This document shows, one piece after another, positions 17,995 to 63,715 of a DNA stretch of 64,000 bases. Position 1 is the stretch's first letter, and the number at the start of each line of letters is the position of its first letter. The notes under the pieces were generated by a model that was not told where the DNA came from, searched no databases, and worked only from the letters and a program-made list of their open reading frames with translations. The position numbers were made by a program, and so were the translations under genes. This DNA comes from Octopus vulgaris (lineage: Eukaryota), in NCBI GenBank assembly GCA_951406725.2, contig OX597826.1, positions 19,840,001-19,904,000 on the forward strand, given 5' to 3'.

Positions 17995-18318
17995 AGTTAC
18001 AGAGATGTACTTGCATAGCAAGTGACTTGATCTGAGATCGTGTGCTGGAACGAAAACAGTTGCAGCGTTGAAGGTGTTTATAAGCCATTTAAGAAACACA
18101 CAAAAACCGTTAGATTCACTTCAACATTTAAATTTAATTTGTCAAAATATTTTCGTCGCTTTGAGACCGCGACCTGTTAGCACGATATTTTTGTCAGTGA
18201 ACAGGTCGCGGTCTCAAAGCGACGAAAATATTTTGGCAAATGAAATTTAAATGTTGAAGTGAATGTAACGGTTTTTGTGTGTTTCTTAAATGGCTTACAA
18301 ACACCTTCCACGCTGCAA
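17995..18318. mobile_element. Fold-back element (119-bp arms plus about 65-nt one-sided tail), probable PLE terminus
   Basis: Arms 18060-18178 and 18200-18318; same family in the opposite orientation at 41316-41637. Confidence 0.7.
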
Positions 18319-18650
18319 TATATATATACACACATATATATATATATGTATGTATGCATGTATGTGTGTGTGTGTGCGTGTCTGTGCTTGTGATTGTCCT
18401 CCACCACTGCTTGACAACGAATGTTGGTTTGTTTACATCCCTGTCACCTAGTGGAAACAGATAGAATAAGTACAATGCTTACAAAAATAAAACTGGAGTT
18501 GATTCATTAAACTACAATTCTTCAAGGCATTGCCCCAGCATGGCCACAGACCAATGGCTGGAAAAAGCAGAAGAATAAAAGAATACATTCTCTGCTTTGG
18601 TCTTATGTTCAAGGCATAAGAAAGCTTGAGTTTACATGAGAAGGCCTAAC

Positions 18651-19345
18651 AGACCTGGTAGAAACAGCAGCCAAATCTCCCTCAAATCACACCTTACTGT
18701 CTTATGTATGTATATATATATGAGCCAATGAGGGGGACCTCTACATGGTAGCTAGACCTGGTAGAAATAGCAGCCAAATTTCCCCCAAATCACACCTTAC
18801 TGTCTTATCTATGTATATATGTATGTATGAGCCTATGAGGGAGACCCCTACATGGCAGCTAGACCTGGTAGAAATAGCAGCCAAATTTCCCCCAAATCAC
18901 ACCTTACTGTCTTATCTATGTATATATGTATGTATGAGCCTATGAGGGAGACCCCTACATGGCAGCTAGACCTGGTAGAAATAGCAGCCAAATTTCCCCC
19001 AAATCACACCTTACTGTCTTATCTATGTATATATGTATGTATGAGCCTATGAGGGAGACCCCTACATGGCAGCTAGACCTGGTAGAAATAGCAGCCAAAT
19101 TTCCCCCAAATCACACCTTACTGTCTTATCTATGTATATATGTATGTATGAGCCTATGAGGGAGACCCCTACATGGCAGCTAGACCTGGTAGAAATAGCA
19201 GCCAAATTTCCCCCAAATCACACCTTACTGTCTTATCTATGTATATATGTATGTATGAGCCTATGAGGGAGACCCCTACATGGCAGCTAGACATGGTAGA
19301 AATAGCAGCCAAATCTCCCTCAAATCACACCTTACTGTCTTATCT
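18651..19345. repeat. 107-bp tandem repeat, about 6.5 units
   Basis: Near-identical ORFs recur at 18745, 18852, 18959, 19066 and 19173; internal units appear identical. Confidence 0.97.
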
Positions 19346-60254: not shown

Positions 60255-61760
60255 TCAGGAATCTACATGGTTGACTTCCTGGTGGTAGGGTACTCGGTAA
60301 CTAATTTTTGCCTGAGCGTTCCGGTTGGTTGGTTCCCTTAAGAAGTCACTATTTGTTTTTTCCTAAGAGTCTGGTTTTCACAAGAGTAAAAATTTTATTG
60401 GTTTGGTTTGAGGTGACGTCAGTAACTGATGTTTGAGAAGATGTATGGTGTCATTGTATAATAATTTGGAGTTAGAGTTTCGAATCCCCGAGGAAGCCTG
60501 TTACTTAAAGTTTTCGAATTATTTAAAATATATCTTTGTTGCCCCATCGCAGTCCCAAGTTTTTGTTTTCAACGAAACCACCTACAGACAATAGTCTGGG
60601 ACTGCGATGGGAACGATCACAGTCCCTACTTTTTCTAACCTTGTCATGGCACACTTGCAAGATCAGATATACGAAAACATCAGACTGAAATTTGGTGACA
60701 ACTTCCAAGTATACTTACTCGCCAAATCGAAACGCTACCTGGATGACTGTTTCATTTTGTGATCACATAACCTTGGTCTATTCTAGGAATTTAAAAATTT
60801 AATTAACAATATTAACCACAGTATCCAATGTATGATGGAATACAGTCACAAACAGCGACCGTTTCAGGGCATTTTAATGATAAACAGATATACTAACATT
60901 GAAATCGACATCTACTTTAAACCAACAAACTCAAAACAATATCTGTCACCCAAAGCATACTAAAATCAATATACTTTTTAACTTGGCAAGAAGAATTTGC
61001 ACGATTATTCCAAATCCCGAAACCCGGGATAAACGACTCATAGAAAGAAGATACCCGGTTAGTTTAATCAAAAACAGAATGGAACGTGTAAAAACGATAG
61101 ACATCCAAGAATTACGAGAAACAAGAAAACCTGACACATTTAAAACTTTGTATTAAATAGCAACACACAATCCAGGGAACATGGAAGCATACATCATCCA
61201 TACCCCTTCTGCTGAACTCGAAGCACATAGAATTATTAAAATTAAACAGCAACCCAAATCCCTAAAAAGGTTACTTACCAGCACCTAATTACCCACCAAA
61301 AATACAACCCCACTAAATTCAAAAAGTACAACCGCCCTCTCTGTCAATGCACCTGGAACACTTCAACCCAATTCCGATTGAATAAGGAAAGTATGTTAAT
61401 TAAAATGTACAACTCACAACTAAATATCCTATAATAACATACCAGAAAGAGAAAACCCAATTAATTTACGAAAAACAGTCAGAGACTGATATAATTCGAA
61501 AACAGGCTTCCTCGGGGATTCGAAACTCCAACTACAAATTAATATACAATAACACCATGCATCTTCCCAAACATCGGTTGCTGACGTCACCTCAGACAAA
61601 ACAAATGAAATTTTTCTCTGGTCAAAACCAGGCTCAGGAAAAATCAAATAGTGACTTCTTAGGCAACCAAACAACCTGAACGCTAGATAACCATCAGGAA
61701 AAAACGAGCTACCTAATCCCTAGTAGGAAGTCAACCAAGTAGAACACTGAACTTTGCCAA
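60255..61760 (+). mobile_element. Penelope-like RT fragment flanked by about 250-bp inverted repeats
   Basis: GTAMGT...FSNLVMA, KRYLDDCF, YFKPTNSKQYL, CHPKHTKINILFNLARRICTI; 60255-60503 is inverted relative to 61501-61750. Confidence 0.85.
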
Positions 61761-62489
61761 ATCAAAACGGAAATTATTTTTGATCAAAATAAGTGACATC
61801 ACGAAACCTTCAACCAATCAGAACTTGTTCTTTGATCGTGGTGAACAAGGAAAAGATGTCACCAGAAAGTAAACCAACCAAAACGCTAGACTTTGCTAAA
61901 ACAAAAATATTTGTACCAAAACATCCACCAGAAAAAAGAACAGAAAGACGCCATCAAAACTTGATGCTTTATCGTAAAAATATATACATATTAAAAGATT
62001 TGGACTTATAACATTTCAAACTCAAATGAGCTAAGAAGGTGAAGAGATCCTTGCACTGAAATTGAGAAAAGAACTACACGCACCACAACAGAAATTGCAA
62101 AAAAATATACATTTTTTCTTTCTTTCCATCTTTTTCTTTTTCTTCATCACTTTTCTACAAAAATTCAATAAGACTGAACTTTCAGTGAAATCTCTTTAAT
62201 AAGATTTGTTTTAACCTGAGCCCCAAAAGTAATGATTAACTATATTTTATTTTTATTTTTATCTTTTATATTATGATTATAATTAATATTATTATTATTA
62301 TTATTATTATTATTATTATTATTATTATTATTATTATTATTATTATTATTATTAATATTACTATCATTATCATTGTTATTATTATTATTACTATCATTAT
62401 TATTACTATAATTATTTGTAATATTACTAAATTTATTATCTTCATTAATTGAATCAAATTTTATCTTATTTTTATTTTTATTTTTATTA

Positions 62490-63715
62490 CTATTTTTTTA
62501 ATTCTAATATTAAATTTATGATTTGTATCATAACATTTCTATTATTATTAAGACGATAAATACCTAAATAAAATTTATCATAATTCAGATAAGTAGGTTT
62601 ATCATTATAAAAATCATTAAAACTATTATTCTTTAAATTATAATTACGTCTACAAATATTAAAGAATTTAATATTATTATTGTATCTTGCCTCATTCAGG
62701 GCTTTATTATAATAAGGTGCATGTTTATTAAAAGTCTCTAAATCATAAGAAAGTAATGATATTCTTTTACCTACATTATTTATCAACGATTTTTAACAGA
62801 AGGTAGATGATTACTATAAGCATTAATATATCTGAGATTTTCATTAATTTTATGGAATGGTTGGGTTTTACTCCTTATTAAATTAAAATTAACATTTAAA
62901 TAATTAACATTATAGTTCACATTATAAATTTCTTTTAAAGAAATTATAAAAATAATTATTATTTGAGTGAATATTATTCTTAACTTACAGGGGAAAAATT
63001 GAATTTAGAAATACTAAATCAAATTTCACAAAATATAATATATATATATAAAAATTAGAAAAAACCCACCTTTTATCAATTGAAAATGAACAATTAAATT
63101 ACACCATCTAGAAAATTACAGAAATAGAAATATTAAAAATAAAATAACAATAATATACCGATGATTAAGTAAAATGCAAAATAATAATATAAACTTATAT
63201 ATTTGGTAGAATACCGACACGTGCTTCGTGGCTATATTTAAGAAATGATTATAGTAAAAAAAATTATAGTAGTAGTAAAATCACTTCGATATAAATATAG
63301 CCACTCATCAGGTTAAAAATAAACTAGAATAATAAAATAATTAATTAATAAATATACGTAAAAAATCTTTTAAAAATAAATATATTCTTTAACATATATA
63401 TATATATATATATATATATATATATATATATATAGTGAAAACTAAAAACAATACTTAAATTATACAATACTTTAAAATTAATTAATATACACAATGCTAG
63501 TACAAGCCATTAATATTGTAAACAAAATAAGAATAACGTGTCGTTATTCTACCAAATATATAAGTTTATATTATTATTTTGCATTTTACTTAATCATTGG
63601 TATATTATTGTTATTCTATTTTTAATATTTCTATTTATGTAATTTTCTAGATGGTGTTATTTAATTGTTCATTTTGAATTGATAAAAGGTGTTTTTTTCT
63701 AATTTATATATATAT
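62490..63715 (-). mobile_element. AT-rich Penelope-like element remnants: RT-thumb fragment, terminal repeat and inverted partial copy
   Basis: LRYINAYSNHLPS...KRISLLSYDLETFNKHAPYYNKALNEARY; 63040-63222 is inverted at 63536-63710. Confidence 0.7.
63212..63315 (-). ncRNA. Type I hammerhead with extended stem II (one core substitution)
   Basis: TAAC-CTGATGA-GTGGCTATATTTA...TAAATATAGCCAC-GAAG-CACGTG-TC^GGTA. Confidence 0.7.

What the first reader, a model, noticed from the sequence alone, without database searches (positions are those of the whole stretch)
17995..63715. Window-wide pattern: fold-back duplications turn around at or beside ribozyme motifs
Seen: inverted duplications at 18060-18318, 30048-30117, 41316-41572, 49651-50121 and 63040-63710 all have a hammerhead or hammerhead-like motif at or near the turning point. 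They often show one long and one short arm, and most abut (TA)n. Known: Penelope insertions often have an inverted, truncated 5' terminal repeat and a one-sided tail. Inference: ribozyme cleavage or ribozyme structure defines the template 5' end, where cDNA snaps back or switches template. This would yield tiny non-coding ribozyme-hairpin insertions from several unrelated PLE families.
Basis: partly seen in the sequence, partly recalled or inferred. Interest (0 to 1): 0.75.

Follow-up and report, generated by a model that had tools for sequence, protein, structure and literature searches.

The report
Penelope fold-backs turn at uncut hammerheads
Five short hairpin-shaped insertions in an octopus genome are cut-down ends of Penelope-like jumping genes (shown for two, likely for three), and their inverted arms meet in or beside a hammerhead-ribozyme motif but never at its predicted cutting point, so they were likely copied from uncut RNA: a known kind of debris with a possibly new clue to how it forms.

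Summary
All five inverted duplications are real and each has a hammerhead motif or remnant at or near the turn. Two (18060, 41316) hold a minimal type I hammerhead with a swapped G3-C8 core pair that standard searches miss. Their arm plus 63-nt tail encodes the first 30 residues of an RT/GIY-YIG Penelope ORF; one copy has a 12-bp target duplication. This is the published inverted-pLTR-plus-tail anatomy. The cleavage idea fails: 0 of 10 arm ends lie at the predicted cut and 9 of 10 arms cross it intact. Seven of 10 ends fall inside the ribozyme, and contigs from other studies show a recurrent turn at the outer edge of helix I, 43 nt upstream of the cut. The bias is suggestive, not proven: loci were chosen for their motifs, 4 other fold-backs lack one and 3 good hammerheads have no fold-back. 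Likely mechanism: two cDNAs primed from both target strands, copied from uncut RNA and joined through short self-complementary stretches. This scan already noted similar fold-backs, upstream-of-core pile-ups and G3-C8 motifs in other genomes.

The parts
17997..18178 (-). Family C copy 1: long arm with 63-nt tail; inner end inside the hammerhead core (34 nt upstream of the predicted cut); abuts (TA)n at 17949-17995
18179..18199 (+). 21-nt spacer; its last 10 nt are element sequence continuous with the short arm; the rest may be a small templated insert
   Evidence: 9 of 300 shuffles reach the insert's match score
18190..18240 (+). Minimal type I hammerhead layout with G3-C8 core pair: helix I 7 bp, core GTGAACA, extra base, helix II 5 bp opening G-C, GAAA, palindromic ATAT, predicted cut after 18233
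   Evidence: 3 hits vs 0.0 in 20 shuffles
18200..18318 (+). Family C copy 1: short (tail-less) arm; abuts (TA)n
41305..41316 (+). Left copy of 12-bp target-site duplication
41317..41440 (-). Family C copy 2: short inverted arm, same outer end as copy 1; holds the G3-C8 motif (core at 41437)
41441..41447 (.). 7-nt centre overlapping the hexamer AAGCTT, at the 5' edge of helix I
41448..41635 (+). Family C copy 2: long arm (core at 41451, predicted cut after 41487) plus 63-nt tail (41573-41635)
41544..41633 (+). First 30 codons of the Penelope-like ORF, open to the end of the tail in both copies
41636..41647 (+). Right copy of 12-bp target-site duplication
30048..30075 (-). Family B': 28-bp perfect inverted arm, inner end 5 nt upstream of the predicted cut; abuts (TA)n
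30075..30185 (+). Family B': sense arm starting at the G of GAAA (20 nt upstream of the predicted cut after 30094), ends in (AT)n
30651..30830 (-). Family B copy with full hammerhead (30782-30732; helix I 6 bp, U-U at the base of helix II, predicted cut GTA between 30738 and 30737); high-copy family; no inverted arm in this copy
49628..49636 (+). Left copy of a target-site duplication of at least 9 bp (right copy 50121-50129)
49650..49809 (-). Locus D: inverted arm, inner end 12 nt downstream of the predicted cut, at the 3' edge of the extended helix I
49902..49962 (+). Locus D: decayed hammerhead (A at position 3, broken helix II, GAAA TCGCGA TA, predicted cut after 49949), in register with family A
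49961..50120 (+). Locus D: sense arm
63052..63393 (-). Locus E: left copy with hammerhead-like motif (core 63311, long AT-rich helix II, GAAG CACGTG TC, predicted cut after 63216)
63394..63434 (.). (AT)20 inside the spacer of locus E
63536..63706 (+). Locus E: right arm starting in the palindromic loop III, 7 nt upstream of the predicted cut; ends in (AT)n
29765..29810 (+). Canonical C3-G8 type I hammerhead of family A, not at a fold-back (control)
   Evidence: (Rfam Hammerhead_1, 24.9 bits, below gathering 34)
53154..53198 (+). U3-A8 type I hammerhead of family A, not at a fold-back (control)

Best explanation
These are single, 5'-truncated head-to-head insertions of endonuclease-bearing Penelope-like elements (shown for family C, likely for B, D and E), whose two arms were likely copied from uncut RNA and would be joined in or just upstream of the hammerhead through short self-complementary stretches. 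Steps. Shown: one insertion event per hairpin (target duplications at 41k and D); two fixed outer ends 63 nt apart in family C; both arms of a copy share private variants; arms cross the predicted cut; 7 of 10 inner ends lie between the 5' edge of helix I and the cut. Inferred: the protein nicks both target strands and primes one cDNA at each of the two known internal start sites (tail and no tail); both cDNAs slow or end in the folded ribozyme or at its 5' edge; having the same polarity, their 3' ends can only anneal through self-complementary sequence, which the ribozyme region supplies (AAGCTT at the helix I edge, palindromic loop III, helix III); each then serves as template for the other. 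The ribozyme would act as a structure and pairing site, not as scissors.
For: Target duplications of 12 bp and at least 9 bp. Same two outer ends in both family C copies. 3 of 10 variable sites are shared within a copy, 0 by arm type. Arm plus tail = ORF start: 30-aa frame open in both copies, 93% identical to the N-terminus of P0007, which overlaps P0008; P0008 residues 125-382 hit 29 of 541 longer candidates, among them P0010 and P0015 with YVDD and a C-terminal YIG/YEG endonuclease segment, look-alikes carrying RVT_1 and GIY-YIG. Two adjacent RT start sites, nicking and extension of both strands, a predicted dimer, and no effect of hammerhead mutants on insertion in vitro (PMC11167929). Palindromes at the inverted junction (PMC3846280). 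Family B loose ends at 30782 read back into the reverse complement of the core as the majority in X2 (12 contigs) and X3 (24), mixed in X1 (9), minority in X4 (8); no row shown for the cut or for the 12-bp and 8-bp palindromes further 3'. 7 of 10 ends inside, 0 of 10 at the cut.
Against: Loci were picked for having a motif; with the two ends of a locus treated as coupled, 3 of 5 loci with both ends inside has P 0.04-0.38 under an assumed uniform null. 4 of 9 short-spacer inverted duplications show no hammerhead, one of them in a non-LTR RT fragment. The family B hot spot rests on 53 of 7103 laid contigs, of mixed sequence, and only 24 of 110 loose-end rows were shown; contigs count sequence variants, not events; AAGCTT is also a restriction site (recalled: HindIII) and library types are not on record. 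Twin priming is not distinguished here from antisense self-priming. No ORF link was found for B, D or E. Cleavage activity was not tested for any motif.
Confidence: 0.55

Rival explanations
1. Known anatomy only: the hammerhead lies 85-170 nt from the 3' end of strongly 5'-truncated elements, so junctions fall near it by truncation bias and by selection of loci; hot spots reflect any short palindrome or later trimming of palindrome centres, with no role for the ribozyme.
For: 4 of 9 fold-backs without a motif and 3 hammerheads without a fold-back; coupled-end null not rejected for upstream extents of 100-150 nt; possible insert and deletion at the two family C centres; junction palindromes already described (PMC3846280).
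Against: Family B's recurrent turn is at a 6-bp palindrome at the helix I edge while 12-bp and 8-bp palindromes further 3' show no listed row; all four family C ends lie within 11 nt at helix I/core although a 10-bp palindrome lies 30 nt further 3'.
Confidence: 0.25
2. The template RNA really begins at helix I: a transcription start or the 3' end of the pLTR intron lies there, so cDNAs run off at that point and are then joined.
For: In Drosophila virilis the intron end maps to the 5' end of helix I (PMC4209133). Acceptor-like T-rich CAG stretches end 8 nt upstream of the core in family B (loose-end letters) and at G3 in family C. An unchecked note of this scan (e1-7858061) reports ends 8-12 nt upstream of the core in another genome.
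Against: Family B contigs cover the 50 nt upstream of the turn about as deeply as the 3' part (summed contig depth is no copy number); D and E arms run well upstream; no acceptor-like stretch in families A and D; no RNA was examined.
Confidence: 0.2
3. One strand folds back on itself: either a single cDNA snaps back and copies itself, or an antisense RNA self-primes (the published suggestion).
For: Head-to-head geometry with small loops (7-23 nt at 41k, 30048, 18060, 54390); private variants shared by both arms; PMC3846280 Discussion.
Against: A copy-back strand cannot reach further upstream than the tailed first strand, yet the tail-less arm does so by at least 10 nt at 18060 and 3 nt at 41k; zero-spacer junctions leave no loop; the fixed short-arm end matches a second priming site (PMC11167929).
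Confidence: 0.2
4. One reading: self-cleavage makes the RNA 5' end, the cDNA runs off there and turns.
For: Motifs with intact core and helices exist in families A, B, C; circular or re-ligated templates could restore sequence across the cut (PMC4209133).
Against: 0 of 10 ends at the cut, 9 of 10 arms cross it; no listed loose-end row at the cut; hammerhead mutants insert normally in vitro and no RNA-seq reads ended at the cut (PMC11167929). My first impression of an exact +1 match at 30048 came from a wrong fold and vanished with the correct helix I and III.
Confidence: 0.05
5. The palindromes are assembly or library artefacts.
For: Arms at 30048 and 30216 are 100% identical; no long read was laid on any named locus.
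Against: Target duplications; two family C copies with the same outer ends but different centres; arms differ by 2 of 119 and 5 of 119 bases, 93-95% identity at D and E.
Confidence: 0.04

Closest known systems
Inverted 5'-truncated pLTR plus tail of canonical EN+ Penelope-like elements (PMC3846280; PMC8557442)
   Same: Head-to-head inverted copy, one-sided tail, target duplication of about 9-12 bp, pLTR and tail holding the first codons of the ORF (12 and 22 aa there; about 10 and 30 aa here), palindromes at the junction, (TA)n targets.
   Different: Here the whole insert is only the pLTR end (130-700 bp), the family C tail is 63 nt rather than 30-40, and junction positions are mapped against the hammerhead, which I did not find done in the passages read or in searches.
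Anole Poseidon element PAc in vitro (PMC11167929)
   Same: Two RT start sites bounding the tail, both strands nicked and extended, AT-rich targets, hammerhead cleavage dispensable.
   Different: That work did not address how the two products are joined; family C's relatives carry a CxxxxCxxC linker, which PMC8557442 assigns to Neptune/Nematis rather than Poseidon; clade not tested by a tree.
Minimal type I hammerheads of PLE pLTRs (PMC4209133) and natural core variants (PMC3088659)
   Same: Extra base before helix II, G10.1-C11.1, palindromic 15.2-16.2/loop 3 (family C); U3-A8 (53160) and U10.1-U11.1 (family B) are described natural variants.
   Different: G3-C8 appears in the passages read only as an engineered partial rescue (PMC8495972, PMC11167929, PMC3884650); family C also has a U at the cut position. 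Lunse et al. 2017 and the supplements were not seen and may list it.
Animal non-LTR retrozymes (bioRxiv 10.64898/2026.07.22.740005)
   Same: Non-coding, hammerhead-bearing, derived from PLE pLTRs.
   Different: Retrozymes are head-to-tail tandem arrays; these are single head-to-head inserts with copy-specific centres, with no sign of being re-copied as a hairpin unit.

Membership tests
EN+ Penelope-like element | ORF with telomerase-like RT and C-terminal GIY-YIG linked to the terminal repeat | tested here: met
   Family C only, through a chain of matches: P0004 to P0005/P0007, P0008, then P0010/P0015. Pfam scan of 6 long relatives gave no RT or GIY-YIG row in this copy.
EN+ Penelope-like element | ORF link for families A/D, B and E | tested here: inconclusive
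   No shared ATG frame open to the 3' end; no genome held; the YIG fragment at 28121-28732 is not joined to these repeats.
EN+ Penelope-like element | Type I hammerhead in the pLTR, sense strand | tested here: met
   Families A, B, C by descriptor; D by alignment; E by eye only.
EN+ Penelope-like element | Head-to-head inverted 5'-truncated copy | tested here: met
   5 of 5 loci, orientation set by the hammerhead.
EN+ Penelope-like element | One-sided tail | tested here: met
   3 of 5: 63 nt in both family C copies, longer arm at 30048; ambiguous at D, absent at E.
EN+ Penelope-like element | Target-site duplication or (TA)n target | tested here: met
   TSD at 41k and D; (TA)n on both outer sides at 18060, 30048, 63040.
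Hammerhead ribozyme (type I) | Core positions 3-9, GAAA, NUH and helices I-III | tested here: met
   18197, 29771, 53160, 30776. Not met by D and E copies as they stand. A model from 29 outside hammerheads scored only 29763 and 53152 at E under 0.01.
Hammerhead ribozyme (type I) | Self-cleavage, as monomer or dimer | not testable with these tools
   Needs an in vitro assay.
Non-LTR retrozyme | Head-to-tail tandem units each with a hammerhead | tested here: not met
   No tandem array holds a motif.
MITE / fold-back DNA transposon | Terminal inverted repeats reaching both ends, uniform centre among copies | tested here: not met
   Family C has a 63-nt one-sided tail, different centres and copy-specific variants in both arms.

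The most novel reading that the evidence does not exclude
Penelope-like elements use their hammerhead, uncut, as the meeting point of a twin-priming reaction: both cDNAs end at or within the ribozyme, preferentially at the outer edge of helix I, and its built-in palindromes join them, which would explain the long-known inverted pLTR, give the hammerhead a role independent of cleavage, and be kept even in a family whose core pair is swapped to G3-C8.
Probability: 0.3. Interest if true: 0.7.

Novelty: new variant of a known kind. Interest (0 to 1): 0.42.

Why it matters
How Penelope-like elements form their inverted ends and what their hammerheads do are open questions (PMC8557442 says so for both). 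Octopus genomes hold very many short copies, so junction position against the ribozyme is a cheap, direct test. The present data argue against cleavage as the source of the 5' end and point to the 5' edge of helix I. The G3-C8 motif also shows that standard CUGANGA descriptors miss a whole high-copy family, so 'no hammerhead' calls for some Penelope groups may need rechecking.

Tried and rejected
Rfam scan of the window: 100 rows, no ribozyme; local scans found Hammerhead_1 at 29765-29810 only. Strict descriptor demanding helix II directly at the core missed family B. My first reading that the 30048 arm ends exactly at the cut used GTC as cut site; the correct fold puts it at GTA, 5 nt on. CTGACAA on the antisense strand of family C was considered as the core and rejected: it is the complement of helix I. 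A covariance model from 29 outside hammerheads was too narrow for families B, C, D, E (23 rows to E 10). GAAA + palindrome + TH alone gave 15 hits, mostly AT-rich or in coding remnants, and is no evidence by itself. Outside set: 102 metagenome loci, 63 with helices I and II of 4 bp or more; 8 had an inverted repeat of 30 nt or more, 2 overlapped the motif, 1 credible (L083, inner end near G8, not at the cut); 17 copies from one metagenome showed none. These loci are not shown to be Penelope ends and short-read contigs break at palindromes, so I draw nothing from them. Family C pattern: 0 matches in viral and genome contigs. Continuation of D's left arm into the ribozyme and homology of E's spacer halves: not above shuffles (43, 86, 29 of 300). 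No RNA holder listed. No whole genome held. Lunse et al. 2017 not held. P0005 atlas search gave only a 0.75 hit.
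Full report
Setting. The window is AT-rich, microsatellite-rich animal DNA; protein hits named Octopus place it in that genus or near it.

The duplications. Self-comparison finds all five named inverted duplications. Arms are 93-98% identical at 18060, 41316, 49651 and 63040, and 100% over 28 bp at 30048. The 41k hairpin plus a 63-nt extension is bounded by a 12-bp target duplication, locus D by at least 9 bp; 18060, 30048 and 63040 sit in (TA)n. Loci 18060 and 41316 are one family (C): same two outer ends, different centres. 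Of 10 variable sites in the four arms, 3 are shared by both arms of one copy and 0 by arm type, so each hairpin was formed, or homogenised, separately. Leaving out a tandem palindrome at 1017 and a 38-bp palindrome at 11495, the window has 9 inverted duplications with spacers under 320 nt; the four not named (2860, 30216, 54390, 59758) gave no hit with relaxed hammerhead descriptors, and 2860 lies in a reading frame that resembles a non-LTR reverse transcriptase by recall (no Pfam hit).

The ribozymes. A strict C3-G8 descriptor gives 2 hits (29771, 30776) against 0.17 in 12 local shuffles. Allowing any Watson-Crick pair at 3-8 and a minimal helix III gives 3 hits against 0.0 in 20 shuffles: 29771 (C3-G8), 53160 (U3-A8) and 18197 (G3-C8). 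The last is family C: helix I 7 bp, GTGAACA, one extra base, helix II 5 bp starting G-C, GAAA, palindromic ATAT, then UU. It has the marks listed for minimal Penelope hammerheads in PMC4209133 (parts 1-2 of 4 read). Both 41k arms carry it with one shared helix I mismatch. Family B has U-U at the base of helix II, a natural variant in PMC3088659 (passages), which also reports U3-A8. G3-C8 I saw only as an engineered partial rescue (PMC8495972, PMC3884650, passages; PMC11167929); searches listed no paper on a natural case, but Lunse et al. 2017 was not held and no supplements were read, so its novelty is open. D is a decayed motif in register with family A. E has the core, a long AT-rich helix II (z -4.1) and GAAG; a similar decayed layout lies at 46775. 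Neither D nor E passes a descriptor. Rfam and my own model see only family A.

Membership. In both family C copies an ATG frame of 30 codons runs to the end of the tail (163 of 2000 shuffles do so, weak alone). It hit 2 of 1.84 billion representatives; the better, P0005, matches from residue 1, and P0007 is 93% identical. P0007 overlaps P0008, whose residues 125-382 hit 29 of 541 longer candidates; P0010 and P0015 show TDKSG, YVDD, a CxxxxCxxC linker and a C-terminal YIG-type segment, and P0015's look-alikes carry RVT_1 and GIY-YIG. So family C is the pLTR-plus-tail end of a C-terminal-EN Penelope-like element, just as PMC3846280 describes (pLTR with the first 12 aa, 22 with the tail, passages and Discussion read). 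For A/D, B and E the assignment rests on anatomy only.

Where the turns lie. Relative to the predicted cut the ten inner ends are -34, -44, -40, -44 (C), -20, -5 (B'), +12 and undefined upstream (D), undefined upstream and -7 (E): 7 of 10 inside the ribozyme, 0 of 10 at the cut, 9 of 10 arms crossing it (offsets). Under an assumed uniform null, 3 of 5 loci with both ends inside has P 0.0001-0.014 if ends are independent but 0.04-0.38 if coupled, the more realistic case. On family B (30651-30830) 792, 1520, 4443 and 348 contigs of four studies were laid. Of 24 loose-end rows shown (110 in all), most reflect ordinary indels or divergence of the window copy; the rows at 30782 (9, 12, 24, 8 contigs; agreement 0.59-0.64) read, as majority in X2 and X3, partly in X1 and not in X4, back into the reverse complement of the core. 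That is a zero-spacer palindrome on AAGCTT at the outer end of helix I, 43 nt upstream of the cut. No row was shown at the cut or at the 12-bp and 8-bp palindromes further 3'. Limits: contigs count variants, not events; 86 rows were hidden; library types are unknown and the hexamer is a restriction site (recalled), though a filled-in ligation junction would read differently (recalled) and the 41k centre, which has a target duplication, overlaps the same hexamer at the same place in helix I.

Mechanism. PMC11167929 (parts 1-2 of 4 read) shows two adjacent RT start sites bounding the tail, nicking and extension of both target strands, a predicted dimer, and normal insertion with dead hammerheads. 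Twin priming from those two sites explains the fixed long and short outer ends, the target duplication and free inner ends. Two cDNAs of one polarity need self-complementary ends to anneal, which fits junctions on AAGCTT, in loop III (E) and at helix III (B'), and the junction palindromes noted in PMC3846280, where antisense self-priming was proposed. Snap-back of one cDNA predicts that the tailed arm reaches furthest upstream; at 18060 the other arm does. The joining step, and any pausing at the ribozyme, are inferred. A boundary of the RNA at helix I is a live rival: the D. virilis intron ends there (intron position in PMC2377424, passages).

Verdict. Unchecked notes of this scan report like fold-backs in sharks, ends 8-12 nt upstream of the core in another genome, and G3-C8 motifs in a protist and a phage; they are leads, not support. 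Other papers seen in passages only: 10.1101/2024.12.14.628481, PMC6962438, PMC6765202, PMC11014351; 10.64898/2026.07.22.740005 part 1 of 5 and passages.

Noticed in passing
window 18190-18240, 29765-29810, 53154-53198: Three different 3-8 core pairs (G-C, C-G, U-A) in hammerheads of one 64-kb window.
   Followed up: partly
window 2860-3252: Head-to-head fold-back with a 38-nt spacer in a fragment that resembles a non-LTR reverse transcriptase, next to (TCT)n; no hammerhead.
   Followed up: partly
window 30216-30520 and 54390-54526: Two more fold-backs abutting (TA)n, the first with perfect 78-bp arms and an apparent one-sided extension; no hammerhead found.
   Followed up: partly
window 28121-28732 (-): Decayed GIY-YIG-type endonuclease end of a Penelope-like ORF (34% to P0002 over 116 aa); a decayed hammerhead-like stretch lies at 29045 (-).
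   Followed up: partly
window 46775 (-): Decayed hammerhead-like layout with long AT-rich helix II resembling locus E.
   Followed up: partly
window 17556-17621: 65 bp matching the 3' end of family A in reverse (83-91%) inside a different repeat whose start resembles Helitron-associated short elements (label recalled).
   Followed up: no
window 54627-54857 / 55934-56164, 38034-38197 / 38969-39133, 60243-60502 / 61501-61761: Three long-spacer inverted repeats (81-99% identity), probably other transposon classes or local inversions.
   Followed up: no
window 18651-19345: 107-bp tandem array, 6.5 copies, 97% matches, no hammerhead.
   Followed up: no
window 15372-15433: Two CTGATGA boxes on opposite strands 60 bp apart, with a helix II-like hairpin after the first but no GAAA.
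   Followed up: no
protein P0007: A named Octopus gene model fuses the family C Penelope ORF start to a methyltransferase domain; may be a mis-joined model.
   Followed up: no
L083: Metagenome hammerhead preceded by an inverted copy running from about G8 to +36.
   Followed up: partly
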